From: Xylographa opegraphella
Taxonomy: Eukaryota
DNA length: 64,000 nt
NCBI GenBank assembly: GCA_022813865.1
Contig: JALDZX010000007.1
Span: 434,001 to 498,000, forward strand
Direction of reading: 5' to 3'
Shown: piece after piece, positions 7,143-62,300 of the stretch
Position numbering within the stretch: position 1 is the first letter of the stretch
Layout of the letters: every line of letters begins with the position of its first letter
Notes under the pieces: generated by a model
Database searches by the model: none
What the model was told of the DNA's origin: nothing
What the model saw: the letters and a program-made list of their open reading frames with translations, nothing else
Position numbers and translations under genes: made by a program

Positions 7143-9981
7143 ATGAGCTCCACGCCCCTGACTCCCGTCACGAACTACGATTCCAACGACGGACGCTCAT
7201 CCAGCCCCCCAACTGCCCCTTCCTCGCCACCCGGAGTAGCCATGGATTCGGAAGGGATTGCTTCCGTTTCTAACACTATGGAAGCGGAAGAAAAGCGCAT
7301 GAAAGAACAGACGAAGCTTCGAGAAGCCAGGCAATCGCAAAAGGCACAAGCTGAGGACGACGAGGAGAAGGAAGCAAAGTATCAGACGCTGATGAAACTC
7401 GTCCAAAGTAGCAAGGTAAGCGTTTGATAGAAGCCCACGGCCCGCTGCTGGACATTGATATTTCGACTAACATGCTATATAGCTCTTTGCGTCTATCTTA
7501 CAAGACCGCCTGGCTGCGAAAGAACAGGATCACCAGCGGAAGGGCGAGTCGGAGAAGAAACGTATCGAGAAGAAGGAAGCGGCAGCCGAAGAAGTTGCTG
7601 TAACATCTCAGAGACGTGCGACTCGAGCAGCTGCAACGCAACCAGAAGATGGAGATGGAGATCAGGCCAAGACGAAGAGCGGGAAGATCAGTGCTAAGAC
7701 AATACCCACACGGCTGGAAAAGGAAAAATCCAGGAATAGGTCGATCGCCGATTATATGACTAGGGAAGATTTGCAAAAAGAATCTCGAGGATTGACGGTG
7801 AATGAAGCTCTTGCCGAAGCAGCTGAAGATCACAACGGAACACCAAAGACCATTGGTGCGCAGAATCTTCGCTCAGCAAACCAGCCAAAGGCTATCACTG
7901 GTGGTGTAATGCGAGCGTATCAGCTTGAAGGTCTCTACTGGCTCTCTTCCCTGTATGAGAACGGACTCAATGGTATTCTTGCAGACGAGATGGGTCTTGG
8001 GAAAACAATACAGACGATATCGTTCTTGGCGTTCCTTCGAGAGAAACAGACCTATGGGCCATTCTTGGTTGTGGCTCCTTTGAGTACGTTGAGTAATTGG
8101 ATTGAAGAGTTTGCGAAATGGACGCCGAGTATTCCGACAGTACTCTACCATGGATCCCCTTCAGAGAGGAGTGAGCTCCGACGGAAGAGGTTGGCTTTGA
8201 ACGAGAAGAGTGAAAACTTCCCTGTAGTGTGTACGTCGTATGAAATCGTTATGAACGATCGCAAATACCTTGCCGCGTATCAATGGAAGTATATCATAAT
8301 CGTGAGTAGGCTTTCAAAGTTATTTTTCTACCACTAACAATTGTTAGGATGAAGGCCATCGAATGAAGAACAAGAACTGTCGACTCATCAAGGAGCTGAA
8401 GCAATATCAGAACACCAACCGCCTTCTTATTACTGGGACACCGTTACAGAACAACATCTCCGAGCTCTGGTCCCTGCTCAATTATCTCATGCCAGAGATT
8501 TTCAGCAATGTCGAGAACTTTGAATCCATGTTTGACTTCTCCAGCATTACTGACAAAGATGGGAATAAGGAGGCCCTCGTGAAGCAACGAAAGAGCAAGT
8601 TCGTGGTGGCGCTGCATGAAATCTTGAAACCGTTCCTCCTCCGGCGAGTCAAGACTGATGTCGAAACGGATCTACCGAAGAAGCGAGAGTACATTCTGTA
8701 CGCACCTCTCACTGCACCGCAGAAAGAGCTTTATCGACAGATAGTGGATGGGAACAGTCGTGCTTACTTAGAGCAGCAAGCAATCGACCGCATTGTGAGG
8801 GATGCAAGTGCCACATCAAGCCGTAGCTCGAGTCTCAAGCGCAAAGCCGCGAATGGTACGGTCACACCCAATAAGAGCGCCAAGTCCAGCAGGGCGTCAA
8901 CCCCTGGAAGTATCCGATCCGCAAACTCGAGCCGGAAGAGTGCAAAGCGTAAGAATTATAAGGAAGTCAGTGATCAACAGTACTTCCGGAAATTGGGAGA
9001 AAGCAGCGAAAGCGAATCGATTGACGAGGAAGAGCAGGAAGAAATCGACCGAGCAAAAACGATAGAGCTAGCCAGTAAGTAAACACATGATCACGTAACC
9101 TAGCATTTGCTAACAGTATACTTGCAGAAAAGGAGATCAGTAACAAGAAGCTCCAGAACCCCATCATGCAACTCCGCCTCGCATGCAATTCTCCCCACAA
9201 CTTCTTCTGGCCATGGGACAACGACGAAACGCCGGACGCCACCCTCGTTACCCACTCGGGCAAAATGCTCATGCTCGACCGCCTCGTTCCCTACCTCTTC
9301 GCCGCCGGCCACAAAGTCCTCATCTTCTCGCAGTTCAAAACCCAGCTCGACATCCTCGAGGATTGGGCCTCTTTGCGGCACCACTGGGAAGTCTGCCGCA
9401 TCGACGGCGGCGTCAAGCAGGACGAGCGCCGCCAGCAGATCACCGACTTCAACACGAAGAAACACGTCAAACTCTTCCTCCTCAGCACCCGCGCCGGCGG
9501 CCAAGGCATCAACCTCACCGCCGCCGACACCGTCATCCTCTTCGACAGTGACTGGAACCCGCAGCAGGACCTGCAGGCCCAGGACCGCGCCCATCGCATC
9601 GGCCAAACGCGGCCTGTCATCGTCTACCGCCTCGCCACCAAGGGCACCGTCGAGCAGACGCTGCTCGAGAAAGCAGACGGCAAGCGCCGCCTCGAGAAGC
9701 TCGTCATTCAGAAGGGCAAGTTCCGCAGCCTGCTGCGCCGGAGGGTCGGCGACGACGAGGCCGACGACCTCGCCGACGCGCTGGAGGGTGACGATTTCGA
9801 GGGCTACGAGCCTGGCGAGGGCGCCCAGCAGATGCTCAGTGAGGCTGATCTGAGGGTCTTGACCGATCGCAGCGACGCCGCGTACGAGCGTGCGGAGAAG
9901 GGGCTGGATGCCGGGGAGAAGTTCAAGACAGTGGAGACGAAGAGGGAGGGCGATGGCTTGCTGGCGGATATGGCGGCGTAG
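7143..9981 (+). CDS. SNF2-family chromatin remodelling ATPase, LSH/HELLS/IRC5 subfamily (exons 7143-7415, 7483-8301, 8348-9074, 9128-9981)
   Basis: Motifs LYENGLNGILADEMGLGKT, DEGHR (start of exon 3), TGTPLQNN, LSTRAGGQGINL and SDWNPQQDLQAQDRAHRIGQ. No chromo, bromo or SANT domains, which fits the LSH subfamily. Confidence 0.9.
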
Positions 9982-10340
9982 GGTGGGGCCTGGGGTGTTG
10001 GTATTTGTGTCCTCGGGTAGTTGGCCTTGAGCGAGGAGCTGGAGGTGTTCGGGGGTTGTTTTACGACATGTCTGTTTCTTGAGCAGCAATGGAATATGTA
10101 GCGGTATGATAATGTTTGAAAATCGACCGATGGCCCATCATCAAGATTGTGTGCCTCTGGAACTGGTCTTTATGTCTGAAAGAGATCACTATCATTGATT
10201 ATGCAAAATGTCATTGACAAGGGCGAGTATTCTCCCCCGGGATCCATTCTACATACGCGACCAGCACCATGGGAGTACTCAGATCTTCGAACCCGACAAC
10301 ATACTCCCAGAACTCCAAACCATGCAACGCCCCCTCCACC

Positions 10341-11735
10341 CTACCGCCTCGCCTCCTCCAACTCCCTCTCCAACCCCTTCAGCACCTCCTCCCTCTTCCT
10401 CAGGTACGCCTCCAGCCCCTCCACCTGCTCCCGCACGCTCTGCACCTCCTTCCCCAGCGCCTTCAACCCCTGCCCCACCTTGACGGGCCCCTCCCCCTCC
10501 TGTAACAGCCGCAGCTGCCTGCGCTTCCAATCCAGCATCTGCTCCAGCTCGCGCTTCACCAGCGCCACCTTGCTGCCGTTGCGCCTGCCGCTCTTGGCCC
10601 GCTTCTCCGCCGCCAGCGCCTCCGCGCGCTCGATCTTCGCCACCAGCTCCGCCAGCTGCTTCTTCAGCCGCACTTCCTCCCATTCCGGCGTCATTGTCGT
10701 CCCCGCCGCCGCGCCCCCGGCTGAGAAATCCGTCCCCGTCGCCCGGAACGCTGCCGTGCCACCCCCCAGCCCCAGACGGCTCAGGTACGCGTCCCCGAAC
10801 TTGGCCTTCCGCCCCGTGGGCGTCTCCTCGCCCGCCGCCCAGCGCTGCGCCGGGGCGTCGCCCTGCTGCTGCCGATCGACGGAGTAGTCGAGGGTGTGGC
10901 GGTCGAAGGTGGCGCGCAGGGAGGGCGGCACGGAGCGGGGGATGCGGAAGCCGTCGTGGCGGTTGGCGAGGATGTGCAGGAAGGCGAGAGCGGCGTCCTT
11001 GCCGATGGCGGGGTCGGAGCGCGGGTTGACGAGGTTCCACGCCGAGCGGACGTCCGTGTCCGGCACGTCCAGGGACGCGTACAGCGGCTCCAGCGAGTCG
11101 AAGCTGACCTCCCCGCGCGCCGTCGCGTTCGCGCTGTAGATGGCCGTGTATTTCGCCGTCGCGCTCGGCGACATGTACCAGTCGAAGCCGTCTTTCAGGC
11201 CGGGCGTGTCGGAAGAGTCGGGCGAGTCCGGGCGCTCGAATGCCGGTTGCGTGCCGGTAAGGGCGCGGGCGGCGGCGACGAGGTGCGCTTTAGAGGACGG
11301 GACCAGCCAGTCGGGGAGCGTGGCGGGGACGGTGGGATATTCCTGGAGAGGGGGAGACGTGTGTTAGCGACGGTATAGTTTCGACTTTCATCGTGAGAGG
11401 CAAGCTCGCATCTCATGCTTCGACGTGACAAAAAAAAAACTCCAAGCTCCCCCGTCCCCCGGACACAAGAAGCAACAACATGCCGCGGGACGTACCCCAT
11501 TGACCAGATCGAAGATGAGGCGCATGGCCACGCAGAACTCCTCAAAGTCGAGGCTGCCATCGTTGTCCACTTCCGCGAGGTCCCACACCTTGGCCAGCTG
11601 CTCCTCGGAGAGCTGGCTGTTCTTGAGGACCGTCGCGGCCTGCTCGCCGTTGAGGTGCGTGCCGCCGTTGGAGAGCGAGGAGAAGATCTCCCAGTAGCGC
11701 TCGACCTCCCATTGCTCGATCTTTTTCTCGGACAT
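10341..11735 (-). CDS. END3: EH-domain endocytosis/actin regulatory protein End3 (intron 11343-11495)
   Basis: [21 protein letters not shown]...[35 protein letters not shown] (EH1). A second EH-like domain ([11 protein letters not shown]) and a C-terminal coiled coil ([14 protein letters not shown]) follow. Confidence 0.95.
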
Positions 11736-12139
11736 GGTGGGCCACAATCAATGGGGGCGGATGGAAAGTTGCGGGTTGCCGATGTGGTTGGGATATTTTG
11801 GAGGCGCTTTCGGAAGCTTACGCATGTTTCCGTCATAGTAAACTCGAAGCTTCACAATTCAGTTCATTATTTACAGTTCTAATATGTCACCAATCTACGA
11901 CACGTTTTATGTCCATAACCGCGTGTTACAACGAGTCCCTGATGTCGTAATGGGAACCCGTGTTAGTAGTACATATCTGCCTTTTGGAAAACAATACTGG
12001 CATACAAAAAGCACCCCAGTATCATTGTGCTGGTGAGATGCCTATTCGAAAGCTGCAGGGCACTGTACGTGGTGCTTCCGTCCACTACCAAAGGATTTGT
12101 GCAAGTCTCTCCCGAGAACAGTACACTCACTTTGTCCTT

Positions 12140-14812
12140 CTAGCTGGGATCCATCTCGCCGATCAAGGTCTTGTTTCTCTTCGTCTTAGGCTTGACAATC
12201 TTGACCTTGGCGGTCTCTCTGATTATTTCAGTTGGGTGATCATCTGCCGCTATGAGCTCTGAAAGTGGTGGCACACTTGCTGTCTTCCGTGGTGCCTTTC
12301 CTCCCGAAGAGGGCGGCTTACTTGGTCCCTTTCGTGGTGCTTTGCCTCCGACTTTGCTCATCGCGGGCTCCTTTGCCACGACCGGTTCCGATATCAGCGG
12401 TTTGCTAGGTGCTTTCCGGGGCGCTTTCCCTCCAGATCCTGGCACAACGTTGTTTGAGACTTCTATATTGCTTGCTATAGAATCCATACTCTCTGTTGTA
12501 GAATTCCGTTGTACGCTATCCGGAGGAGATGTTGAAATGAATTCTGGTAGAATTGGCTGTACCGATTGTCTCCTGACTGCCTGCTTCCTCTCTGACTGCT
12601 CGAGACTGGATCGTCGATGCGTATGTGGCTCCAGTGCTGACTCCTTTTGCTCAGATGTGTTATCTGTATGGAGATTCGCCGCTTTATTTCTGCTGCTCAA
12701 CTCGTTGACCCTACTGTAACCGTGATTTGTTTCAGTGCGCGTTGCGACTGCCTGTTTACTTCTCGCTCTGTTCTCCGTAATGGTGTCAGTCGGCGAGGAA
12801 GCATCTGTTAAGCTATCTCGGTACCTTGACGGCTTACGAGTGGCCATGGGACTTCTTGTTGCAGAAGCGGAGCTTGGAAGATCTGGTGTGAACGGAGTGC
12901 TTCGATCCTTTGGCGTTACTGTCGGTGTGATGGCTGTTGCTGTGCTACCTTTCGTTGTAGAGCTCGTACTGCTGGCTCTCCGAACTCGCTCATTTGGTGC
13001 AGTGCGAGAAACTTGAGAAACCCCAACCACGAGTTGTTCCGGATTCTTATCCTTTGCAACGTTCTGGAAATCGGCTGGAACACTTGCCTCCTTCACCTTG
13101 ACCTTTTCTGAGCGATCTGTCATAGATTTTCCAGAATATTTCATGGATTCGATTCTCAACCGCTCCAGAGCTTCGGAGGACTGCCTGCTCACGCTGGGAA
13201 CACCATAAGCAGTCTTCCACATCTCGTGTATAGAATTCCCCACTGCTGGCGTCTGGAGTGCTGCATTGGGGAAAAATGTTGTACGTCCAGGTTTTGCCGT
13301 CCCTGACCAAGTTCTTTTTGGCTGGACAACGATAGTCGTCGGATCAAAGTCTTTCACTGTGTCTGCCTGAAGAGTAGCAGTAGAATTCGGAAGACTGTTA
13401 GGTTGAGCCAAACCTTCGAAGACTGGTGATGCGTCTGAGGTTACCACAGCTGACTTCGATGGTGCCTGCGTTGTTTCACTCTTGCTATTCGCGATGATAG
13501 AGCCTGGGGGTCGCACTTGATATGGCTGATGTCGTGAACGGCTATTCAGCTTGAGAAATGGTACATTTGAAGATGTATTTTTCAAAGCTTGACCTGTGGG
13601 AACAGATTTTGGTGGTGCTGAAGGAGTCACATCGTCTACATGGACGTATTTACGGCGAACCGGGGGTTTTCTTTTCGCAACATTCAACGCTTCTCCAAAT
13701 GTGTTCGTGCCTTTTATTCGCGCAGCATTCTGCCACAAACTTTCCTGACCAATCACGTCAGTAGCGTGGTCTTGTTCTTCGTCGAGCCCGAGCGTTATCT
13801 GTGACCCGTTTTCCTCTGTCAATTTCGGTGCCCCAACGAGCGGCTCCACCCACCGACTAAGTAAGGATAGTGGTAAGCCTCGTGACTTTAGAAAATTCTG
13901 AGCGTAGACTAGTTCTCCTTCAGTCGTTGTGAAAAAGTCCATCTTGCCGGTCGTGAAAGCAGCGAGGTAATAGCTAAGACGAGCTTGATAAGTCGTTGAG
14001 GTTATATTTGTAAGTCCCATACCATTCCGATCAAGGAGCAGCTGGTTCATCTCATGTTGCATATTTGCAATCCTTGAATCCTCTTTACGCTCCAATTTCC
14101 GGCGATGATGATCCCAAACCACAGTCTCCAGCCATTCCTCCGCAGATAAGCCAAGGATACCGATTACTTGTTCCTCTGTTTTATCTTCTGCCAACAGACC
14201 TTGAATAATTTCAATGCGATGAACAGGAGCAAGTCCCTTCCATTGCGGGGCTCGTATCTGGACTAATGAAGACCGCTGAGTTGTTTGTCAGCTCTGAAGG
14301 TAGGCTGAGGTACGTTGTCTTGCCTTCAGAAGCGCGGATTTTCCTTGTCCATGATTCTCATCTTCATCACTTGTTTCCATATCCTGCATATTCCATTCAT
14401 GTTCTTCCTGGATTAGACCGGATTCCAAGCGCGCAAGGCTTCGATAGTAAGCAGGATGATGAGGGTGGATGCCCAAGTTCCAGGTGTGGTTCCCCATAGA
14501 TACCAAGGATGTTGTTGGAGGATGAGCAGCTGGAGGTGCACTTTGTAGACTTGCATAATCTTGGGTTGTAGATTCCGACTGGTCTGGTAGAGGTTGTTGA
14601 CAGCGTTCGCCAAGCTCAATACCACAATCTAATTCGCTTAGGGTTCGGACTGGTTCATCAAGGGTTGGGAACGCGGCTGGAGGAAGGTGCGGATTGAAAT
14701 CTACATATGGTGGACGGAACAGTGCTTTTCGAGCGGTGGGCATATATCTCTCCCCATCAGAAATCTCAGGCTCGTATCTCTTTGGAGGGACGACGCGTTT
14801 TCTAAGCTCCAT
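12140..14812 (-). CDS. Orphan ~870-aa largely disordered protein with three C-terminal GGKAPRK motifs (one intron near 14270-14325)
   Basis: Exon 1 MELRKRVVPPKRYEPE...FRPPYVDFNPHLPPAAFPTL joins the long ORF 12140..14194 across a ~50-nt intron with a GCTGAC branch point. S/T/K/P-rich, with no family recognised. Confidence 0.7.
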
Positions 14813-21306: not shown

Positions 21307-23455
21307 ATGGTTGAGAAAGAATCCTTCGTGGTCGAGCCGAGGCCCTCGTCGTATGCCCACAAGAAGCCTGCTGTGCTGATAATCATCGCATTCATTGCTG
21401 TCTTGAGTCTTCAGTGGCTTTGGCAATCGCAGCATGATACACATGTTTTGACTTCTCCGCCTCATGAGGATAAAAAGGGATTTCGGTGGGAGGATGTACG
21501 TGTTCGACTGCTGTTTCTCCACTGTGCCTCGACTGATTGGATGTAGATCACCCCTTCGACAAGTCTAGAATATCATCAATGTTTCACAGACTTTCAGTGT
21601 GCAAGGCTCGAGGTGCCTTTGGACTGGAACGAAACCATCGCTGGAGAGAGTGACAAAGTTGCCATCGCCATTATCAAGAGGCCGGCAAAAGTCGAGATCA
21701 CGGATCCCAGATATGCCGGTGTCATACTCCTCAACCCAGGTATTCACTCTTAGTGCAATGTTATCTTACAACTATTGATACCCTTCAGGCGGCCCCGGCG
21801 GGTCAGGAGTAAGCCTAATGCTCACCAGTGGGCAGTATCTACAGCTCCTTTTAGACTCGGTCCCCCAAGTCACTGATCATCTGGACATTGATGCCGAAGA
21901 CGAGAAGTATTTCGACCTGTTGAGTTGGGATCCTCGAGGCGTCAACAACACCACCCCTGGCCATGGATGCATCCCAGATCCCATTGCGCAGCGGAACTGG
22001 ATCTCTCAGAACAACGCCATTGGCTTCTCCCTGGAGGACGAGGACGTCTTCCGGAATGTCTATTCGCGAGGTCGACTCCTCGGCCAGACGTGTGCCAATG
22101 TAGACGGCGCCAGTGCCGTCAACAGGGTCAACGGAGGCGAGCACTTGGGCCAGTACGTCAGTACTGCCAATGTGGTCCGCGACATGGTCGAGATCGTTGA
22201 ACGCCATGGCGAATGGCGTGAAAAACATGCCAAAGCCCTACTCTCCCGTTCCTGCGCCCGTTCAAAAGATGCTGCTGCCATTCTCGAACGTACCGCCTGG
22301 CAGCAGGGTGAAGAGCAGCTCCAATACTGGGGCTTCTCCTACGGCACTGTAAGTAATAGCAAGGCAAAACTTGGCCTGAATCACACAATTGGAATGAAGA
22401 CTGATGATATCACACCCACACAACAGCTCCTCGGTCAAACCTTCGCCACCATGCAACCCCACCGCGTGCGCCGCATGGTCCTCGACGGCGTCGTCGACGG
22501 CGCCGATTATATGGGCAACGGCTGGCTGAAGAATATCCTCGACATCGACGGCATCACCGCCGCCTTCGCCGCCGCCTGCTTCCGCGCCGGCCCCGTCCTC
22601 TGCGCCGCCCACGACGCACGCGGCCCGCCCGCCATCCTCGCCACCCTTTCCGCCGTCCTCGCCGACGTGCGCAGCAATCCCCTCCCCGCCTTCCACGACG
22701 CCGTCCCCACAACCATCAGCCACAGCGACGTCGTCCTGCTGCTCTTCTCCCTCTGGTACAGCCCGCTCTTCGGCTTCCCCCTCGCCGCCTCCGCCATCGC
22801 CCAGCTCGGCGCCCGCAACGGCACCGCCCTCGCCGCCCTCAAAGCCAGCTACGCCCCGCACATATGCGACCTGCCCGCCGCGCGCGAGCGTGACACCGCC
22901 GGCGCCCAGATCGCCATCCTGTGCTCCGACGGCGACGGCCACGCCCGCGGCGACATCGGCAGCCAGGACGCCTTCCGCGCCTACCTGGACGCGCTGCGGG
23001 CGCAGAGCCCGATGTTCCACGAGCGCTGGGCCCAGGTCCGCCTCCCGTGCGCGGGCTTCGACGTCCGCGCCAAATGGCGCTTCGAGGGCGCCTTCGGGGC
23101 CCGCACCGCGCACCCCGTCCTCTTCACGAGCCAGAGCCTCGATCCCGTGACCCCGCTGCCGAACGCCGCGCACGCCACCCGCCTCTTCCCCGGCAGCGTG
23201 CTGCTCGAGACCAAGGGCCTCGGTCACTGCGCCGTGAGCATGCCGAGCGTGCAGGGCCTGCTGGCAGTGCGGGAGTATTTCCGCACCGGGGAGCTGCCGC
23301 CCAATGGGACGACGTATGAGGTTTACGAGGGCCCGTTTGGGGAGCGGGCGGAGGAGGTGCTCAGGACGGAGGGGGAGAGGAGGGTGGCGGATGCCGGGTT
23401 GCGGCTGGCGGGGTCGTTGTTCGAAGAGATCATGGGGTCGATTTGGAGCCACTGA
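21307..23455 (+). CDS. Secreted or membrane-anchored TAP-like alpha/beta-hydrolase (peptidase S33 family), 4 exons
   Basis: N-terminal hydrophobic helix, then FQCARLEVPLDW, LLNPGGPGGSG (spliced), WDPRGV, YWGFSYGT, VLDGVVD, LDPVTPL and GHC. Confidence 0.9.
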
Positions 23456-23623
23456 GGTATGGCAGGCAAAGCTGTTGGTATCTGGGCATGACAATGTGAT
23501 TTTGGGTACATCGAATGTCATACCTGCCAAGACATCGTTGTGCGATTACGCCATCACAAGAACCACGGACATGTGCAAAAAAGACACGTATTGCCCTTAC
23601 TCCCTTCCTCCACAATCCCTCCC

Positions 23624-26608
23624 TCACAGGCCGCGCATAATGTCCCCCAAACCAACAGGCTTCCGCACCGCGTTCGAGAAGCCCTCATGAAACGTGACCC
23701 AGATGCGATTCGCCACCACCGTCTCCCTGCGCGCCCTCGCCCTGCCCTCCTCCCTACTCACAACCCGCGCCTCATTGACAATCACCCGCCCGAAGAAATC
23801 CCGCTTCACGCCCGCGACGCTGGGCTTCTGCCCTGCCCCGAAGCCCGCTCCATCCAGAGGGGCGTTTTCCTTACCAGTACGGTGGTTCACGCGAGGATTG
23901 TCACAGTCCGCGTTCAGGTCCGGCGCGCCCCCGGCTTGAAAGCGGGCTTGCCGCGCATCGGCCTTTTGGCGCACGCGGTACTTTTGGAATTCCTGATCGA
24001 GAACTTGGCGGACGGCGTAGCGCGTCGGGGCCGTGGCTGTGGATTTCTGCGCCGACGTTTCGAACACGGCGAGCGTGTCGAGAGGCCTGTGGGATGTTTG
24101 GTCAGTGCCGTGACGCTCAAGTATCACATTGGAACGATTAAGAAGAGCAACGTACGGCTCCATGCGGTAGATAAAGCCGCCATAACCCCCTCTCGCATCC
24201 TCGACACGGGCTCGCTCGAACGTTACGCCAACGGCGCCCATGGCTTCCACAGCACGCCGGACCATTTCTTTCTCACTCTCCTTCCTCACGCTGGCTGTAC
24301 CACGTACGTCTCCACTGCCGCCTACGACGACCGGCTTGACGTCTGGGGTCAGCATGCGGAGCAGATGCGGCAGCAAGTCTGTTGCGATTTCCTCAGGGGA
24401 GCGGAAGCTTCGTAGCAGAGGTGCGGAAAGAGAGGATTGAAGACCAAGAAGGATGGCGCGGTTTTGTTTGCCCACCTCGAATGCCGAGAAATCTGCCCTC
24501 GGCCCTGAAAAGGGTTCGGGCTCTTTGTCCTCCTCTGCGCCCCAGGGTTTTTGATCCTCTGGAGTATAGGACTGCTTGGCCGAGGAAGCGAAAAGGGAAT
24601 GGAAGCGCAAGATCGATTGGCTAAGGTACGGAGTCAACTCCCACTCCTGGCCGGCAAAGACTTTCGAGGAGAGAGTATCGTGGAAATGCAGCCAGTCGTA
24701 GGCTGTGTTTGGTCTGGAAAGGAAGGTGTCGTCCTGGAAAGGCTGGGCAGGGTAGTTTGTGAAGACGTCCGTCATGATGCGATCTGGTTCGCCAGAGGTC
24801 TCGATAATGTCGCGTAGTCGAACGATCGCTATACCTTTGTGAGCGTCTACTGTACCAACAGGGGTTCCTAAACCGGTCGAGGACACTATAGGAGCGGCAG
24901 CCACAGTCTTTGGAAAGCCTGCACCCTCTATGAAGATTCGATCGAGGACCTCTCTGGCACCTCCTCGACCGATACATCTTGCGCCACCTCCACCGTGCGA
25001 GAGGTCGTCCAGCATATTCTTTTCGACCCATTGCCTTGTCAATTTTGGAGCACCTCCTGAAGCCGATCCACGAATCTTGCCGGCAACCCATTCCCCAACC
25101 ACCAATACACCACGCATGTCACCCTCGCCCGTGTGGCTAGAATTTGACCGGCTTTCCCTCCTATTGGTAATCCCCCATGTTGCCTCACAGAGACGTCTGA
25201 CGCCGTCTCCATCGCATGCTACACCTTCTTTATCGAAGACGGTCCTCATTCGAGCCACGATCTTGTCAAGAGGTGGCTTCCGGATGTGAACAACTTCAGC
25301 TAGGTTAGAAGCCCTCAATGGTCTCAGAGCAGGATGATAGACATCATTGCAGATAAGAATCATAGGTCGAAGCAATCTGAACCGCTCCCCCTTTTTGCTC
25401 TTTCTGGGTGTTGGTGCACCTGATGTAGTAATGGGCGTATTCTTCTGGTCGAGCATGACCAAGTCGATCAATGCTTTAATAAACCCCCCTTCACCACCAC
25501 CACCGCCGCCGCCGCCACTACTACTACCACTCACAACACCATCGACTTCATCGATCACAACACAGACTGGCCGGCCTGATTTCCTGACTGTTGTGCCGTC
25601 CAATGTCTTTGTATTCACACCTCGCACATTTTCTGTCCCTACACTGTCCTTTATTCTTCCTTTGACGACTTGACTACTCCGCTCGTCGCTGGCGTTTATT
25701 TCCACGATTTCGTATCCAGCCTGTCTGGCGCAGACATGAGCCAACGTCGTCTTACCAAGGCCTGGTGGCCCTGTCAGAAGGAGGATCTTTCGATGCAGCC
25801 GTTCCTCGGAAGCCTCATCGTCCATTTTACTTTTGACTTTGGGCTTGCTCATGCCAGGAAACACAATACTATCCCATCCTTTGAGCCATCGTAGAACTGT
25901 TCGATGAGTGCGCTCATCTCCGACCAGGTCCGTAAATTTTTTAGCACGATACTTTTCCGTCCACATCATCGATCTTCGCTTCTTATTTGCGGGTCCCATT
26001 TCTATAGAGGGCTTGCACGGCTCCAAAGGTGGCCCGAAAGTGACAAGCTTCTTGGCTGCGGCTATCTCACTGGCCTCATCCATCAGCTTGTGCATCTCAA
26101 TGCCATAGTAGCATTTCTGGGCCTTCCCGGGAGCGGTAGTCGATCGATTTGCAATAAGTCGCTCATAACTCAGGGAAGGTTGCGCGATCTTCTTCCGAAG
26201 TGAGAAAGTCTTCCCTGAAGTGGACTTGAACGAAGTGGCTGGATACACATTCCTCTTCGCGGCATGATCGCTTGGCCTGGCCGTTGCAAATTCAATTGAA
26301 AGGCTTTCCGTATTTTCTTCCACAGCCTCAATGTTCGGAGAGTCATCTTCATCCTCAACAAATGGCCCAGGTGTCGCCCTGAACACATGCTTCACCGGTG
26401 AAACTGTAGGAAATAGCTCTTTCGAACAAGCAGCTACTTCCGAGACCTTCTGACTCTTGCGATCTTCATTGAAGAGAGATTGACCAAATAGCTTCCGCTT
26501 GGCAGTGGTGGTATGAAAGTCAGGTGGTGGAGGACGTTTCCGTGGCTCATAGTGCTCTGGTGGTGAAGAGCTCGGGGGATATGCCAATGGGGACGAGATC
26601 AGCGGCAT
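23624..26608 (-). CDS. CTF18: Chromosome transmission fidelity protein 18 (alternative RFC large subunit; intron 24087-24155)
   Basis: MWTEKYRAKKFTDLVGDE, Walker A GPPGLGKTTLAH, EINASDERS, Walker B VIDEVDG, RPMILICND and the C-terminal WVTFHEGFSNAVRKPV (Dcc1/Ctf8-binding tail). Confidence 0.97.
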   Translation of the reverse strand: MPLISSPLAYPPSSSPPEHYEPRKRPPPPDFHTTTAKRKLFGQSLFNEDRKSQKVSEVAACSKELFPTVSPVKHVFRATPGPFVEDEDDSPNIEAVEENTESLSIEFATARPSDHAAKRNVYPATSFKSTSGKTFSLRKKIAQPSLSYERLIANRSTTAPGKAQKCYYGIEMHKLMDEASEIAAAKKLVTFGPPLEPCKPSIEMGPANKKRRSMMWTEKYRAKKFTDLVGDERTHRTVLRWLKGWDSIVFPGMSKPKVKSKMDDEASEERLHRKILLLTGPPGLGKTTLAHVCARQAGYEIVEINASDERSSQVVKGRIKDSVGTENVRGVNTKTLDGTTVRKSGRPVCVVIDEVDGVVSGSSSGGGGGGGGEGGFIKALIDLVMLDQKNTPITTSGAPTPRKSKKGERFRLLRPMILICNDVYHPALRPLRASNLAEVVHIRKPPLDKIVARMRTVFDKEGVACDGDGVRRLCEATWGITNRRESRSNSSHTGEGDMRGVLVVGEWVAGKIRGSASGGAPKLTRQWVEKNMLDDLSHGGGGARCIGRGGAREVLDRIFIEGAGFPKTVAAAPIVSSTGLGTPVGTVDAHKGIAIVRLRDIIETSGEPDRIMTDVFTNYPAQPFQDDTFLSRPNTAYDWLHFHDTLSSKVFAGQEWELTPYLSQSILRFHSLFASSAKQSYTPEDQKPWGAEEDKEPEPFSGPRADFSAFEVGKQNRAILLGLQSSLSAPLLRSFRSPEEIATDLLPHLLRMLTPDVKPVVVGGSGDVRGTASVRKESEKEMVRRAVEAMGAVGVTFERARVEDARGGYGGFIYRMEPYVALLNRSNVILERHGTDQTSHRPLDTLAVFETSAQKSTATAPTRYAVRQVLDQEFQKYRVRQKADARQARFQAGGAPDLNADCDNPRVNHRTGKENAPLDGAGFGAGQKPSVAGVKRDFFGRVIVNEARVVSREEGRARARRETVVANRIWVTFHEGFSNAVRKPVGLGDIMRGL

Positions 26609-33826: not shown

Positions 33827-36800
33827 ATGAACAAGCTGCCGGTCGCCTCGCGTCTCGACTCGCAAGGGACCGTGCAGGCACCAAAGAATGGTGAACTTCC
33901 AGAAGACTCTCATTATGCGCTTTCGTCCTTCTCACACCATCCCGATCACGAGTCTTCTTTGCCTCAGACATTGATCACTTCACTCGATGATGTTCACAAG
34001 TCTTCACAAGATCCTCAGACTTCTAACCCTTTCATTTCTCAAACATACGAGTCACTACATCTTCAGACAGCTTCACCCTTGCCCCGGCCTATGCACGAGT
34101 CATCGCCTCTTCTCCTGAACTCTACACCAATGTCTCTATCCAAGACTGCAAGTGTTGACGAGGCTCACACTGCTCCCGAGGTTAAAACAGGCACTATCAA
34201 GCAAATATCCTCCCCCGGCAAGCCCAAGTACGATCCGAAGCAACTCCTCAACCCGAGACTCTTCGAAAATGTCAAAAGTCAGAAACGAGTCGGCCCGGAC
34301 TTCGCCACAGTACCGAGAGAGGTTATGAATCCTTTGGGACCCGCTGGAGCTGTCAACACTCAGTTCGTTTTTGATTCTCCCGGCGATAGGTCGGCTAAGC
34401 ATCTTTACGCTGAGGACGAAAGCGTGGGCATGGGTGGACTCATCGAACGTGTTCATAATGTTTCTGCCAGGGAAGAACGCCCGATCAAGAAATTAAAGAC
34501 ACAACATAACGAGGACGAGATCACTGGAACTAAGGCGGTTTTTGGCGGCAGTGGAAAGGGGGGAGACATCGGAGAATATATGAGAATGAAGAGAAAGGAA
34601 GGACAAGCCGAGGCGGTGCAACCCTTCAGTATTGTAGATCTGACAACAGGTGAGTTTTGAAATGACGACGTAGTAGCGTATACTGACTCTCCATCTTAGA
34701 CAACGACGACGATGTTACTGCCGTGGAGAACATGAACGATAGAGAAGTCTGCTATGGTCGTATTGATAACGCTAAAGTGCAAGCCCACATGGTCCCAACC
34801 CCTAATCCCAAGGCGACATACCTAAGCAAGACTGACTGGCCATCGATTAAACTTCATCTTCAAAGATATCCTGGCAAGAACATGATCATACGCGTCATGG
34901 ATCCAGCTGGAAAGGACTTTGGCAACATCGACGTCCGCACTTCCCTCGGGTTATCGCCAGTGATGGACTCCCACTTCTCCAATGTTCGAATCCAGGCGCG
35001 TCTCGACCCGAGAAAGAAAAAGCCCAATGAGTTTCCCGGCCAATTCTGCTCGGAATACTACAATGCGACAATCAATCTGTACGGACCACGCAGCACCGCA
35101 ATCGGCATTGGTAGATTCTTGAGCCAAAAGCAAGTCTTCCTCCGAGCCCCATTCGGTGTAGATAAAGGCATAGAAGTCTTGAATCCACATGTCATCAAGA
35201 ATCCAGTTCTTCAGCTCCCAACGCTTAATGGGTCTACTGGTGGTGCCACATCTACCGGGTACGCCACCAGAACTGTCGAAGAAATTCGTAACGATGTTGT
35301 GGGAATGTTCGACTCTCTTGAAAAGTCTGAGAATTTACCTGAGATGGAGCCTGACAGTCGGATTACCACTCCGCTTCTAAGTCATCAAAAGCAGGGTCTT
35401 CACTTCATGACAAGCAAAGAACAGGCGAGAGTGTTTGCCGATAAAGAAGAGGACAACAACTCCTTGTGGCGACTGCAACGAAGGGCGAACGGCCAGCCAA
35501 TCTACGTCAATGTTATTACGGGACGAGAAGAGCGGTCCCGACCTCCCGAAGTCCTTGGCGGTATCCTAGCGGATATGATGGGCCTTGGAAAAACGCTAAG
35601 TATTCTTTCATTGATCGTGGGTAGTTTAGATGCCGCTTCTACCTGGGCAGAACAGCTACCGCAACCTGTAGCAAACCAGGGAGGGATTGCACTCAAACGT
35701 AACGCAAAGACAACTTTACTTGTCGCACCTTTGAGTGTAGTAGCGAATTGGGAAGAGCAGATTATCGCTCATATACAACCCGGAACATTGTCATGCTACA
35801 TCTATCACGGAAATAGTCGGTGTCAGGACATTGACGAGTTGGCGAAATACGACGTTGTCATTACCACATACAGCATTGTCTCAAGCGAGTTCAACGGACG
35901 TAGTAAGAAGCGAGATGGCAGTCCACTTCTCCAAACGAATTTCTTTCGTATTGTCTTGGATGAAGCACATATGATCCGAGAACAATCAACCAGGCAATTC
36001 CAAGCGATCTGCACACTCGCTGCACAAAGGCGCTGGGCCGTGACTGGGACTCCGGTGCAGAACCGTCTGGACGACCTCGGAGCCCTGATCAAGTTCCTAC
36101 GGTTCAAACCATTTGACGAGAAAGGTGGCTTCACCCAGTTTATTTTGGCACCATTCAAAAATGCCGATCCTGAAATCCTTCCGAAACTCCGTTTGTTGGT
36201 TGACAGTATCACCCTGCGGCGGCTGAAAGACAGGATTGACCTACCTAAACGTCATGACCGCGTCGTCAGGCTACAGTTCAGCAAGGATGAACGAGAATTA
36301 TATGAGTGGTTCGCTAAAGACTCAGACAATAGAATGAGAATCATTGCAGGTCAGAAGAAGGGCTTGGGCGGTAAAACATATGTGCACGTACTACAAGCAA
36401 TTCTCAGGCTTCGGCTTATCTGTGCCCATGGCAAAGAACTACTAAGTGAAGACGACTTGAAGTTGACCGAAGGCTTCAGCTCAACCAATGCTATCGATCT
36501 GGACGACGAGGATGATGGAAAGCCACTTATAAGCAAACGTCAAGCCTATGAGATGCTGATGCTGTTCAAAGAGACGGATTCTGATACATGCTCGCAGTGC
36601 TTGCGTCGAATCGGAACTCGAGATTCTAACCTTGAAGATGCCAAAGACGAAGTCATTGGTTGCATGCTCCCATGCTTCCAGATTGTCTGCAATGACTGCA
36701 TCGGCGAAGTCAAGAAAACAATCAACGAAAAGGTTAGAGATAATCATTTTACTTGTCCATTTTGCGAACAATACCTTCGCATATCTTATTTCGACTTGAC

Positions 36801-37437
36801 GCAGGGAGGTATTGAGGATGCCGAAGAGGCAAAGATCATGGCGCGGGAAAACCCAAGGCAGGCTAAGATAATGGGCAGATACGGTGGGCCACATACCAAG
36901 ACAACAGCACTGATGGAAGGCCTGCTAGATTCGAAAGTCGAGAGTTTGGAGAACCCAAATGATCCACCAGTCAAGAGTGTAGTATTCTCTGGATGGACTG
37001 CTCACCTGGACTTGATTCAAATTGCTTTGGAGGACAACGGCATTCAGTATGTTCGTCTGGATGGCAAAATGAGTCGAGTTCAACGTTCTGCTTCCTTGGA
37101 AGTATTCCGCACAGATCCAGAGATAGCCGTTATCCTTGTGTCCATCAGTGCTGGTGGCTTGGGGCTGAACCTTACAACTGCATCAAAAGTCTACGTAATG
37201 GAACCTCAATTCAACCCTGCAGCGGAGGCACAAGCAATCGACCGCGTACACCGCCTTGGTCAGAAGCGCGAAGTCACGACGACACGATTCATCATGCACG
37301 ACAGTTTCGAGGAGAAGATGCTAGTGTTGCAGCAGAAGAAGAACAACTTAGCTAGCATGAGCATGAATCGTGGAAAGCTTGACAAAGCAGAGGTCGCGAA
37401 ACAGAAGCTTGAAGAATTGCGCAGTCTCTTCAAGTAG
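33827..37437 (+). CDS. RAD5/HLTF(SMARCA3)-like SNF2 ATPase with internal RING finger (intron 34650-34699)
   Basis: HIRAN-like N-terminal region, GGILADMMGLGKT, RIVLDEAH, TGTPVQN, RING (CSQC...CFQIVCNDC...CPFC) and GGLGLNLT...MEPQFNPAAEAQAIDRVHRLGQ. Confidence 0.93.
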
Positions 37438-59360: not shown

Positions 59361-62300
59361 ATGGCCTCGTCAAGGTCCATGCGCAACTCGCCCCGTACGG
59401 CCAGTCCTCTGGAAGCCGCCCGGAACAATTTATCAACTCCGGAGAACGAATTAGTGATGCAGCAGGAGAAGCTCGCTGGGCCAAGCGAATGGAAGGAACC
59501 GCCATTACGTGCCCCAGCTCCAAGTTTCGAAGACTATAAGGGGCTTGAGCGGCATGGAGTCTTGGAGCATATGGCTCCATTAGGTGCGATGCCAAACCAG
59601 AGAGTCAGGTTGAGAATCAAGCAACATGAGCCATCTCGGCGGAGTATGCTGGGAAAGAGTACGGAGGCCGCCGCCGCTTCCAAAGAGCCCAGTAAAGCTC
59701 CAGAGGTGCTTGGTGTGAGGAGGCGATCGGAGTCTCGGAAAGTTGAAGAGCGATCATCGAAGGCACAAATACAGCGGGAGAAAGACGAAGATCAGGATTA
59801 CACTCCAAAGACTATACCAACCAAATCGGCCACAGCAAAGGCAGCATCGATGCGCAACGCTCACGCACCCGTGCCCAGTTCACAGACGACCGCAGGGCAA
59901 GAGAGACTTAGGCAGGTAGTTGTCTCAGCAGTAGAACGTGCGAAAGAGTTAGGGAATGAGCATCTAGGACTTGCTATGCAAAGGATCTACGAGGAAAGTC
60001 TGCACAACCGCACTCTGGCGGAACTTCTGGACGCTGTGCTCTCTCAACGACCAACACCTCGCCAGGCAGCTGATTTTCAGGCGTACATCAAAATTGCAAG
60101 GAAGAAGATCAAGTCGGAGAAAAGTCGATCCAGGAGATCCTCTATGGTTGGCATTAACTCTTCATCGAAGTCTACTTCAAAGTCGCCATCCAAGAGTGTA
60201 GGGCCTACGGGCGCACGCAAGCCGGAAAGTCTTTTGGACAGTATGGAGATTGAGGCCACAACAAACCCTAATCAAAGTATTCATTCACCATTATCTAAGG
60301 CCAGGATCAATAACATGCCTGGGACCCATGAGCCGCGTATCAAACGTATCAAACGCTCCAAAAGTGTGTCAAGCACTTCATCTTTATCTTCGCTTTCCTC
60401 CACCGATCCCGCTATTGATCTCGACCACGAGCATGACCACAACAACAATCAACCTTCCTCCTCTCCTAGACCTCTCCACTCTAAAATGGCTCGCGGTGAA
60501 GCTCGTGCATCTCAAGGGCCAAAGATGCATACCTTTGCTACCGGCCGCACTCCATCAACTCGCCGCCAATCCGCTCCTGTGGTGAAGGTGCAGCCCGTTG
60601 ACCTATCTCTCCCCGAGGACGAGCTTGCAGTCAAGCGTAAACAACTGACAAAAGTCTTTCCTGACTACAAGGTCGAAGAGAGCAACCTCCGCACCGAGGT
60701 AGCTCCTGAGCTCTGTGCAGCCTCTTCACCCGGACCTGCTCAACTTTCACTACAATTTTCTTCTATGAGACGTGATGACTTCGACGACACTCGTTCACCT
60801 GTATCATCTACACAGGGTGATTTTCTTGTTCCTCCTCCTCCAGGAGCACAACGACCTTCGCGTGGTGCAACACCAAATCAAATTCTCACTCGGCCGAAGA
60901 AGGAGCTACGCAAAGGGGCTCGTATCAAGAACTCGTAAGTCTACTCTGCCAATGCTATGCCTCAAGCTATTGCACAGAAGATAAACTGCACATCCTCTGT
61001 TGGTGATTTTTGGGGCTGTGTTGCTTTCGAGGCAGCCGTTATTCGGATCACCTGTTATGATCCTCAATATTGCGCCCGTGACAACAACAAAGACTAAGCA
61101 TGTTTTTACATTTTTACGCGCACCGCTGACTCTTTGAATACTCCTAGACCCCTCAAAAAGAAGTCTGGAGTTGTTGCTGGTATTGCACGCAAGAGTGGAG
61201 GTAGAGACAGCCCGGTCGGCTACGGGCACACTGGAGATAATGGAGAGGTAAGACCAAGAAAATTCGCCCAGCTTTGTTTCTTCCCTTCCAACATTTTTCT
61301 GCTTCGTCGCACATACTTTCGCGTTCATCGATCGACGTCTTGCTTTGCTTCCATATTTGTAATTACTGATCATCTATCCCTTTCTATTCATTACAATATA
61401 TTCTTTGCTTGGATTGTAGCATGGCTCAATGGCTAACATCGTTGTCCAGGTTGACAACAATGATTACTGCAATTCATGTGGGGGCAGTGGCCAGCTTCTC
61501 TGTTGCGACGGATGTATTCGCTCGTTCCATTTCAAGTGTTTGGATCCACCAATGAACCCGCGTAATCCACCGGAAGGAGAATGGTATTGTCACGTCTGCG
61601 TAGCTGAGCGGGTGCCTCCAACCCGAAGGCCTCGAGGGTTATTCTCATTATTGATGGGCAATATTGAGAACCACAACCCCATTGCCTTCAACCTTCCTCT
61701 TGATGTTCGGCATTCATACGAAGGAGTCAAAACGGGCGAGGATGGCGAATACGTCGATACCACAATATATAGGGCAAAGTAAGTCTCTTGCCAACACCGA
61801 ACACGTGTCACGTGGGTAGACGACTAAACTCCTTAGCAGACCTCGAGAAGATGGCTCCGTCACCCATGAGTTGCAAGACAAAAAGGGGAACCTCATCATA
61901 TGTTGCAAATGCGAGAAATCGGCCATTGGTCACCGTACGATTATCCAGTGCGACTATTGCAATAAGCAATATCACTTGGACTGCCTCGACCCGCCAATGG
62001 CGAATCCTCCATCCAAGCTTTGCAATTGGAAGTGCCCGGCTCATTTTGATGAGGAACTACTAAGCTTCAAGTACCCTGGTGGCGATCGCGTCATTAAAGT
62101 AAGACGCCCAAAGCATCCAAAAATTATCGACACTGCTTTGCGCCGTGGTCATAAGAACAACGGCCTGATTGAAATCGAGAACGAAATCACCGACGAGGAA
62201 GGGGAGCAGCCACATACCGTCCCTCGAATCTCGGAAATGCAGATCAAGCTTGACTTTATAGACCGTGCTAAGAGGTATTTACTCTCCGCTTGTGACTTGC

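What the first reader, a model, noticed from the sequence alone, without database searches (positions are those of the whole stretch)
12284..12433. Orphan protein with three exact histone H3 K14/K18 tail motifs (GGKAPRK): candidate histone mimic
Seen: the C-terminal tail reads SGGKAPRKAPSKP...VGGKAPRKGPSKPPSSGGKAPRKTAS. The three copies use different codons (gga ggg aaa gcg ccc cgg aaa / gga ggc aaa gca cca cga aag / gga gga aag gca cca cgg aag) yet give the same peptide, which argues for selection at the protein level. Established: GGKAPRK is H3 residues 12-18, the Gcn5 substrate site, and H3K14ac is read by bromodomains and double-PHD fingers. No histone fold is present. Inference: an undescribed disordered nuclear protein acting as a multivalent H3-tail decoy or substrate for acetyltransferases, deacetylases or readers.
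Basis: partly seen in the sequence, partly recalled or inferred. Interest (0 to 1): 0.75.

Follow-up and report, generated by a model that had tools for sequence, protein, structure and literature searches.

The report
Histone-H3-like repeats in fungal protein tail
A lichen fungus protein carries three conserved copies of a seven-residue stretch identical to part of the histone H3 tail in its floppy basic end, most likely a nuclear-import or chromatin-docking signal rather than a proven histone decoy.

Summary
Three exact GGKAPRK heptamers, identical to H3 residues 12-18, lie at window 12413-12433, 12329-12349 and 12284-12304 on the minus strand. Synonymous sites between copies are near saturation and no amino acid differs.

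Three parts of the reading need correction:
- The protein is not an orphan. It equals an 873-aa Xylographa opegraphella record and belongs to an unnamed Lecanoromycete/Eurotiomycete family (204 representatives at E<=1e-3). The family shares an N-terminal motif and a helical domain.
- The selected unit is a 12-mer, GGKAPRK-x-PSKP. It forms conserved islands in a disordered basic tail.
- Eight Xylographa-type orthologues keep two or more copies. Two unnamed relatives have one near-copy and Lambiella has none.

Relatives end in AT-hooks, an HMGN-like RRKSARL motif or an acidic motif.

Best reading (0.45): a lineage-specific nuclear-targeting or chromatin-docking array of short motifs, possibly using the importin pocket that binds H3 12-18. 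The decoy or substrate idea is not excluded (0.15) and is untested. The tail shows no alignment-level similarity to H3. One exact histone-tail heptamer per fungal proteome is roughly expected by chance.

Earlier scan notes report H3 12-23 copies on giant-virus HMG proteins, not on this family.

The parts
12140..14812 (-). Whole gene. Exon 1 is 14314-14812, the 51-nt GT-AG intron is 14263-14313 and contains an in-frame TGA, and exon 2 is 12140-14262 with the TAG stop at 12140-12142. It encodes 873 aa.
   Evidence: The spliced translation equals P0003 exactly. P0003 is the 100% hit named 'Mucin-12 [Xylographa opegraphella]'.
12398..12433 (-). Repeat copy 1, GGKAPRKAPSKP (protein residues 777-788). 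The H3-identical heptamer is 12413-12433.
   Evidence: Mean pairwise identity among 8 Xylographa-type proteins is 0.82, against 0.48 for the following spacer.
12314..12349 (-). Repeat copy 2, GGKAPRKGPSKP (residues 805-816). The heptamer is 12329-12349.
   Evidence: Mean pairwise identity is 0.82.
12269..12304 (-). Repeat copy 3, GGKAPRKTASVP (residues 820-831). The heptamer is 12284-12304. The second half is degenerate in this species; most orthologues have TPSKP.
   Evidence: Mean pairwise identity is 0.77.
12170..12193 (-). Basic cluster KPKTKRNK (residues 857-864). It is the only K-[KR]-x-[KR] pattern in the protein and is a classical-NLS-like pattern.
   Evidence: Regex scan. Coordinates were worked out by hand from the gene model. 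Whether it functions as an NLS is inferred.
13847..14254 (-). Confidently predicted helical domain (residues about 170-305). It is the conserved core of the family.
   Evidence: AlphaFold2 on alignment A3 gives 10-residue blocks with pLDDT 73-98. Profile positions up to about 300 match in distant relatives. No clear fold match was found.
14657..14812 (-). N-terminal family motif (residues 1-52): MELRKRVVPPKRYE...FRPPYVDFNPHLPPAAFPTLD.
   Evidence: The NP.LPPA.FP-type block is found in 102 of 157 proteins collected; many of the rest are fragments.

Best explanation
The three heptamers are the cores of a 12-residue unit, GGKAPRK-x-PSKP. The unit occurs three times in the disordered, basic last 100 residues or so of an 873-aa protein of the lichen fungus Xylographa opegraphella.

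The protein belongs to an unnamed family of Lecanoromycetes and Eurotiomycetes. All members share an N-terminal motif and a helical domain of about 135 residues, but their C-terminal ends differ by lineage. Some end in canonical AT-hooks (DNA minor-groove binders). Some end in an RRKSARL motif like the HMGN/Dsup motif that binds the nucleosome acidic patch. Others end in an acidic-hydrophobic motif.

I read the Xylographa repeats as this lineage's version of that end module: a multivalent array of short linear motifs that brings the protein into the nucleus and/or docks it on chromatin.

The most specific candidate partner is the karyopherin that imports H3 (Importin-4/Kap123 class). Its acidic pocket holds H3 K14 and needs H3 12-18.

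Shown here: the sequence, the repeat unit, its selective conservation, the disorder, family membership, and the relatives' tail motifs. Inferred: nuclear location, the partner, and any role of lysine acetylation.
For: - **Conserved islands.** The repeat units have mean pairwise identity 0.77-0.82, against 0.44-0.48 for the spacers, 0.50-0.54 for the disordered body and 0.72 for the folded domain.
- **Selection between copies.** pN is 0/15 with pS 0.50-0.83.
- **Disordered tail.** pLDDT is 43-53. The last 103 residues hold 21 K/R against 9 D/E, with one K-[KR]-x-[KR] pattern.
- **Family context.** Among 105 family members of 400 aa or more, the last 120 residues hold a GRP AT-hook in 10, RR[KR]SxR[LIV] in 8 and an acidic-hydrophobic DEMVLLP-type motif in 22. 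The last 70 residues are net basic in 50 and net acidic in 31. Pfam AT_hook matches three of these tails below its cut-off.
- **Positional equivalence.** In alignment A2, copy 1 aligns with TGGKAARKTTT (P0013) and AGKAPRKKPP (P0018). P0019 ends in GRPRGRPRK.
- **Literature, passages read.** An H3 1-18 peptide binds the Importin-4 C-terminal region but 1-11 does not. Residues 12-GGKA-15 are the ones resolved in the crystal, and K14 is the main contact and matters for the yeast H3 NLS (bioRxiv 10.1101/181321). RRSARLSA binds the nucleosome acidic patch (PMC12487698).
Against: - No localisation, binding or expression data exist for any family member. No paper mentions four locus tags searched.
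- This protein itself has no AT-hook and no RRSARL motif. The argument from relatives is positional analogy between tails that do not align.
- 55 of the 105 relatives have none of the scanned tail motifs.
- The strict retention of G-K-x-P-R-K (G 25/25, K 24/25, P 25/25, R 24/25, K 24/25) is tighter than generic charge would need. It fits a specific H3-type partner, which could equally be an acetyltransferase or a reader.
- The PSKP half has no role in the published importin contact.
Confidence: 0.45

Rival explanations
1. One reading: a true H3-tail mimic. The repeats are acetylated at the K14/K18-like lysines by Gcn5/SAGA or NuA3-type enzymes. They then act as a multivalent decoy, or as a recruitment handle, for deacetylases and acetyl-lysine readers.
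For: - The heptamer is an exact match to H3 12-18, three times over.
- The positions that vary among 25 repeat instances are the ones the published consensus motifs leave free. G-K-x-P is kept in 24/25 and K-x-x-R in 23/25; these are hand counts from the list. The 'x' (A15) is A in only 17/25 and G12 is G in 20/25.
- G-K-X-P is described as the Gcn5 recognition motif (PMC3344931, passages). K14ac-X-X-R is the BAZ2B bromodomain motif, and the HDV antigen copies it (PMC6972770 and PMC5663869, passages).
- The H3-like half is more conserved (0.80-0.90) than the PSKP half (0.71-0.76).
- Relatives' tails point to a chromatin context.
Against: - The exact heptamer is kept in only 13 of 25 instances.
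- The PSKP half is also conserved and has no H3 counterpart.
- Lambiella lacks the motif.
- The tail has no alignment-level similarity to any PDB chain, H3 included, at E<=10.
- By composition, about one exact heptamer shared with some histone tail is expected per fungal proteome. This is my estimate from p of about 3e-9, about 4.5 million residues and about 100 tail heptamers; the last two numbers are recalled or assumed.
- No enzyme or reader was tested.
Confidence: 0.15
2. A different docking motif. The unit is read through its second half, as a class I SH3 ligand ([RK]xxPxxP = R-K-x-P-S-K-P) or as a phospho-switch (T-P-S-K fits the CDK consensus, and R-x-x-x-S-x-P resembles a 14-3-3 site). 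The H3 identity is then incidental.
For: - [RK]xxPxxP is present in 2 of 3 copies here and in 17 of 25 instances. TPSK is present in 10 of 25. Both are hand counts from the list.
- P, S, K and P of the second half are kept in 23, 24, 23 and 20 of 25.
- The consensus patterns themselves are recalled, not taken from a call.
Against: - These patterns are less well kept than G-K-x-P-R-K.
- Copy 3 of this species has lost the middle proline. No copy in this species has TPSK.
- Such low-information patterns match many proline-rich basic segments.
- Nothing else about the family points to the cytoskeleton or endocytosis. The End3 gene next door is only a neighbour.
Confidence: 0.12
3. There is no specific partner. 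The unit is a basic, proline-rich low-complexity repeat kept only for bulk properties (charge, polyproline-II stiffness, solubility). It resembles H3 because the H3 tail is built from the same few residues.
For: - The H3 tail and this tail share a K/R/G/A/P/S/T-rich composition (one search gives the tail frequencies).
- Phmmer finds no significant similarity to H3.
- The motif is confined to one genus plus two single near-copies.
Against: Bulk constraints do not explain position-specific invariance (G13 and P16 in 25/25) next to spacers at 0.44-0.48 identity. They also do not explain 0 non-synonymous changes against near-saturated synonymous sites.
Confidence: 0.15

Closest known systems
Histone H3 N-terminal tail, residues 12-18 (GGKAPRK)
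   Same: The heptamer is identical, three times over. It includes the G-K-x-P and K-x-x-R sub-motifs and the R-K pair. The numbering 12-GGKAPRK-18 is as printed in bioRxiv 10.1101/181321.
   Different: There is no histone fold. The motif lies near the C-terminus (residues 777-826 of 873), not the N-terminus. The flanks differ: PSKP follows here, where I recall QLATKA in H3. There is no alignment-level similarity.
Described histone mimics: HDV small antigen K72ac-X-X-R (BAZ2B bromodomain), the BAZ2B interdomain linker, and H3 N-terminal mimicry proteins such as VRK1
   Same: A short histone-like linear motif in a disordered part of a non-histone protein. Two of these concern the H3K14 region (PMC6972770 and PMC5663869, passages read; PMC8166343, abstract read).
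   Different: Those have measured binding to readers and are 4-5 residues long. This one is 7 residues, triplicated, endogenous to a fungus, and has no experimental support.
H3 nuclear localisation signal bound by Importin-4/Kap123-class karyopherins
   Same: The segment needed for Importin-4 binding is H3 12-18, with K14 in an acidic pocket (bioRxiv 10.1101/181321, passages). The same residues are the best-kept ones here.
   Different: Binding was not tested here. The H3 signal works with other tail lysines and with the H3-H4-Asf1 complex.
AT-hook and HMGN/Dsup nucleosome-binding motifs at the ends of chromatin proteins
   Same: A short basic motif at the end of a long disordered protein. Family relatives carry these motifs in the last 120 residues, mostly the last 70 (PMC12487698 for RRSARLSA).
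   Different: This protein has neither a GRP core nor RRSxRL. The link is by position and family only.
Giant-virus HMG-box proteins with a copy of H3 12-23
   Same: The same stretch of the H3 tail is copied onto a non-histone, DNA-associated protein.
   Different: Those are viral, single-copy and longer. They are unchecked AI notes that I did not test. They are unrelated in sequence to this family.

Membership tests
Histone H3 | Histone-fold domain | tested here: not met
   Pfam gives 0 families at E<=1 and E<=10. The tail and the family profile find no histone among PDB sequences. The only confident AF2 domain is a helical bundle at 170-305 with no histone match in fold searches.
Histone mimic (histone-like short linear motif) | Sequence identity with a histone-tail segment in a non-histone protein | tested here: met
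   Exact GGKAPRK three times. The H3 numbering is from bioRxiv 10.1101/181321.
Histone mimic (histone-like short linear motif) | Binding or modification by a histone writer, eraser or reader | not testable with these tools
Gcn5-type substrate site | G-K-X-P consensus around the target lysine (PMC3344931) | tested here: met
   3 of 3 copies here and 24 of 25 instances in 8 proteins (column tallies, combined by hand). The pattern is present; acetylation is untested.
H3-type NLS (Importin-4/Kap123) | A GGKA core with the K14-equivalent lysine | tested here: met
   3 of 3 copies here. Across instances G 20/25, G 25/25, K 24/25 and A 17/25. Only the pattern is met; binding is untested.
AT-hook | A G-R-P core flanked by K/R | tested here: not met
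   There is no GRP in P0003. It is present in the last 120 residues of 10 of 105 relatives.
HMGN/Dsup nucleosome-binding motif | An RRSARLSA-like arginine-anchor motif | tested here: not met
   It is absent from P0003. RR[KR]SxR[LIV] is present in 8 of 105 relatives, for example QRRKSARLNPP in P0050.
Unnamed Lecanoromycete/Eurotiomycete family (no Pfam entry) | An N-terminal PPKRY...NP.LPPA.FPTLD motif plus a helical domain of about 135 residues | tested here: met
   The profile of A1 finds 204 representatives at E<=1e-3, matching profile positions 1 to about 300. The N-terminal block is in 102 of 157 collected proteins.
Mucin-12 (the name on the public record) | Mucin tandem repeats or SEA-type domains | tested here: not met
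   Pfam gives 0 families. The name appears to rest on S/T/P-rich composition (S 10%, T 8.5%, P 8.7%).
Class I SH3 ligand | [RK]xxPxxP | tested here: met
   2 of 3 copies here and 17 of 25 instances (hand count). This is a low-information pattern and the consensus is recalled.

The most novel reading that the evidence does not exclude
A chromatin-associated fungal protein family swaps its C-terminal chromatin anchor between lineages: an AT-hook, an HMGN-like acidic-patch motif, or an acidic SIM-like motif. In Xylographa the anchor has become a triplicated exact copy of H3 12-18. That copy plugs the protein into the histone H3 machinery: import by the H3 karyopherin, acetylation at G-K-x-P by Gcn5-type enzymes, and capture by K14ac/K18ac readers. 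This would be an endogenous, multivalent, acetylation-switchable mimic of the middle of the H3 tail.
Probability: 0.15. Interest if true: 0.7.

Novelty: new variant of a known kind. Interest (0 to 1): 0.4.

Why it matters
If the repeats really engage H3-specific factors, this would be the first cellular, multivalent mimic of the H3 K14/K18 region. It would also be a natural experiment in how a disordered tail acquires a histone-like signal.

Even on the conservative reading, the work defines an uncharacterised protein family of Eurotiomycetes and lichen fungi. Its C-terminal ends appear to exchange different chromatin-docking motifs. One of these is an HMGN-like motif in fungi, where canonical HMGN proteins are not known. 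That can be tested in model Aspergillus or Talaromyces species.

The case also warns that a single exact histone-tail heptamer is not strong evidence of mimicry by itself.

Tried and rejected
- **Own genome.** None is held, so the fungus's own H3 and a proteome-wide count of histone-tail heptamers could not be obtained.
- **RNA evidence.** No RNA holder is listed. One DNA run holds the stretch and may be its source.
- **ESM Atlas** with residues 1-320: no usable hit.
- **Fold searches with the whole model.** Foldseek's best E was 0.54. The best VIA-align wide score was Z 5.1 with 90 residues aligned at rmsd 5.4, which is within the noise for helical models. No fold is assigned.
- **Domain-only structure prediction** (alignment A4). 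It was never accepted: the queue was full or the machine did not answer. I do not claim the domain has no known fold.
- **PDB sequence searches.** The tail gave 0 hits at E<=10. The family profile A3 gave only a 32-residue match to a 'CAP REPEAT' chain and two E 0.46 rows.
- **Search for other proteins with such tails.** Residues 600-711 of P0001 found only 7 Xylographa-type proteins among lengths 391-1245 and none among lengths 30-390. Longer proteins were not searched.
- **Histone-like pentamers in 148 non-Xylographa family proteins.** There is no general enrichment. KAPRK occurs once (P0018) and KAARK once (P0013). The excess of KAPR (21 against 1.8 expected) seems to come largely from the N-terminal family motif: 5 of the 8 sites printed lie at residues 8-15.
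- **Literature on four locus tags of relatives:** 0 papers.
- **Earlier scan notes** by place and by sequence: nothing.
- **My first splice guess** (a GC-AG intron at 14323..14276) was replaced by the GT-AG model that reproduces the public protein.
Those counts are therefore hand counts.
Full report
**What is there**

The finding lies in the last exon of a minus-strand gene. Exon 1 is 14812..14314. A 51-nt GT-AG intron at 14313..14263 carries an in-frame TGA. Exon 2 is 14262..12140. Together they translate to 873 residues, identical to the public protein P0003. P0003 is labelled 'Mucin-12 [Xylographa opegraphella]', so the window comes from a lichen-forming fungus.

Pfam finds nothing in the protein, so the mucin name has no support. 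The surrounding 64 kb holds ordinary fungal genes: two SNF2 helicases, End3, a dual-specificity phosphatase, Spo7, Med21, Serinc, a Sec7-PH protein and others. None of them bears on the finding.

**The observation**

The tail reads ...PGSGGKAPRKAPSKPLISEPVVAKEPAMSKVGGKAPRKGPSKPPSSGGKAPRKTASVPP....

At the DNA level the copies are a 38-nt unit only 63-76% identical. Tandem Repeats Finder sees no array. Within the heptamers, Nei-Gojobori counts give pS 0.50-0.83 and pN 0 of 15 sites.

GGKAPRK is printed as H3 residues 12-18 in bioRxiv 10.1101/181321 (passages read). That fungal H3 carries the same heptamer is my recollection. I could not fetch the fungus's own H3 because no genome is held.

**Not an orphan**

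A first search found nine Xylographa-type proteins, counting P0003 itself, and Lambiella insularis at 32% identity. Seven of the nine are named species and two are unnamed ENA records.

A profile of these ten, run against 1.84 billion representatives, found 204 proteins at E<=1e-3 and 79 at E<=1e-10. Most of these, beyond the close relatives, match only profile positions 1 to about 300. That region holds an N-terminal PPKRY...NP.LPPA.FPTLD motif, an acidic METSDED patch and a helical domain.

Named members come from two groups:
- Teloschistales and Acarosporales lichens.
- Eurotiomycetes: Talaromyces, Aspergillus, Paecilomyces, Malbranchea and Onygenales, including Coccidioides.

All are 'hypothetical'. 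None of the 24 scanned has a Pfam family at E<=0.01. No paper mentions four of their locus tags.

AlphaFold2 with a 112-sequence alignment gives one confident domain, residues about 170-305, with block pLDDT 73-98. It also gives a helix at 120-146 and another at 527-541, and disorder elsewhere (563 of 873 residues below pLDDT 50). The tail scores 43-53. Fold and sequence searches against solved structures gave no clear match. A domain-only prediction could not be run.

**The real unit and its history**

In 25 repeat instances from 8 Xylographa-type proteins the consensus is x-G-G-K-A-P-R-K-[T/A]-P-S-K-P. The counts for the twelve positions from G12 onward are 20, 25, 24, 17, 25, 24, 24, (T 12/A 9), 23, 24, 23 and 20 of 25. 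The exact H3 heptamer is kept in 13 of 25.

The units are islands of conservation. Their mean pairwise identity is 0.77-0.82. The spacers score 0.44-0.48, the disordered body 0.50-0.54 and the folded domain 0.72. The H3-like half (0.80-0.90) is somewhat better kept than the PSKP half (0.71-0.76). Spacing is fixed at 28 and 15 residues, and X. pallens has a fourth copy.

The X. soralifera protein seems to lack the motif. Its C-terminus, however, corresponds closely to the +1 frame of the same repeat DNA, so the DNA is there. The frame shift is either real or an assembly or annotation error.

Outside the genus, two unnamed relatives have one near-copy at the position of copy 1: TGGKAARKTTT in P0013 and AGKAPRKKPP in P0018. 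Lambiella has none. No other protein of 30-1245 residues in the 5.8-billion-protein collection has a similar tail at E<=10. Longer proteins were not searched.

**Is the H3 identity meaningful?**

By alignment statistics it is not. The 112-residue tail finds no PDB chain at E<=10, although that set holds many H3 chains.

By composition, p(GGKAPRK) is about 3e-9 to 1e-8 per position. With about 4.5 million residues per fungal proteome and about 100 histone-tail heptamers (both numbers assumed), roughly one exact match to some histone tail is expected per proteome. A single origin of the motif therefore does not reject chance.

What does need explaining is its retention. The pattern of retention fits the published H3 consensus motifs:
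- G-K-x-P in 24/25, the Gcn5 recognition motif (PMC3344931).
- K-x-x-R in 23/25, the BAZ2B bromodomain motif that the HDV antigen copies (PMC6972770, PMC5663869).
- The GGKA core that Importin-4 holds, with K14 as the main contact (bioRxiv 10.1101/181321).

It fits these better than a class I SH3 pattern (17/25) or TPSK (10/25).

**Family context**

Among 105 family members of 400 residues or more, the last 120 residues carry the following:

| Tail motif | Members | Example lineages |
|---|---|---|
| Canonical GRP AT-hook | 10 | Teloschistales, Talaromyces, Malbranchea |
| RR[KR]SxR[LIV] | 8 | Onygenales, Paecilomyces (e.g. QRRKSARLNPP) |
| Acidic-hydrophobic DEMVLLP-type | 22 | Aspergillus and others |
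| GKxPRK-type | 11 | 8 Xylographa-type, P0018, 2 loose matches |
| None of these | 55 | |

One protein is counted in two classes. The last 70 residues are net basic in 50 members and net acidic in 31.

RRSARLSA is the HMGN/Dsup motif that anchors on the nucleosome acidic patch (PMC12487698, passages). AT-hooks as minor-groove binders is recalled knowledge; Pfam's AT_hook model matches three of these tails below its cut-off. So the family seems to end in interchangeable chromatin-docking motifs. This is an inference from motif content, since nothing is known experimentally about any member.

**Verdict**

- **Best reading (0.45).** This is the Xylographa version of the family's nuclear-targeting or chromatin-docking end. 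The H3-type importin pocket is the most specific candidate partner.
- **Decoy or substrate reading (0.15).** It is not excluded, and the retention pattern fits it, but it has no direct support and must also account for the conserved PSKP half.
- **Other docking motifs (0.12) and a bulk-property repeat (0.15).** Both remain possible.

Earlier notes of this scan describe H3 12-23 copies on giant-virus HMG-box proteins. I did not test those and they concern other DNA.

The finding is a new variant of a known kind (a histone-like or basic tail motif). It is moderately interesting. Its main value is that it points to an unstudied chromatin-type family that could be tested in model Eurotiomycetes.

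Noticed in passing
proteins P0050, P0057, P0080, P0042, P0047, P0035, P0118, P0044 (C-terminal 120 residues; not in the window): Eurotiomycete relatives of the family end in RR[KR]SxR[LIV], for example QRRKSARLNPP in Coccidioides and Emydomyces. This is close to the HMGN/Dsup nucleosome acidic-patch motif RRSARLSA. Canonical HMGN proteins are described as vertebrate-only (PMC12487698).
   Followed up: partly
proteins P0019, P0038, P0046, P0062, P0069, P0089, P0105, P0108, P0119, P0139 (C-termini): Ten family members carry a canonical AT-hook (K/R-G-R-P-K/R) in their last 120 residues, mostly within the last 20. They include Teloschistales lichens, Talaromyces stipitatus and Malbranchea.
   Followed up: partly
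22 of 105 family members, e.g. P0031, P0039, P0041, P0052 (C-termini): A conserved acidic-hydrophobic end motif, (D/E)n-[MV]-V-L-[LV]-P, is found in Aspergillus and other members. It looks like a SUMO-interaction-type motif; that resemblance is recalled and untested.
   Followed up: no
protein P0008 (Xylographa soralifera), last 18 or so residues; compare window 12360-12470 minus strand, frame +1: The annotated C-terminus LEGRRPGKHLANRYSQDH corresponds closely to the +1 frame of the repeat DNA. The published model therefore shifts frame just before copy 1, through a true frameshift, an assembly error or a wrong intron.
   Followed up: partly
window 12140-14812 (-): The public record names this protein 'Mucin-12'. 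No mucin-type domain is found, so the name appears to be an automatic label from S/T/P-rich composition.
   Followed up: yes
window 12252-12719 (+): A 155-aa ATG ORF runs antisense to the tail and repeats FRGAFPP-like peptides. It mirrors the repeats on the other strand. High synonymous divergence in the sense frame argues against constraint from it.
   Followed up: partly
window 14263-14313 (-): The single intron is 51 nt, a multiple of three, and holds one in-frame TGA. The two exons therefore appear as one frame broken by a single stop.
   Followed up: yes
window 22001-24000: G+C rises to 0.64, against about 0.50 for most of the window, with long ORFs on both strands (21779-23452 + with a TAP-like hydrolase domain; 22265-23545 -). 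A second G+C-rich stretch (0.61) covers the End3 gene at 10001-12000.
   Followed up: no
window 7483-9978 (+) and 34687-37434 (+); 61820-62452 (+): The same 64 kb holds two SNF2-family helicase genes and a PHD-finger ORF. These are chromatin genes but are tens of kb away, and there is no evidence of a link to the finding.
   Followed up: no
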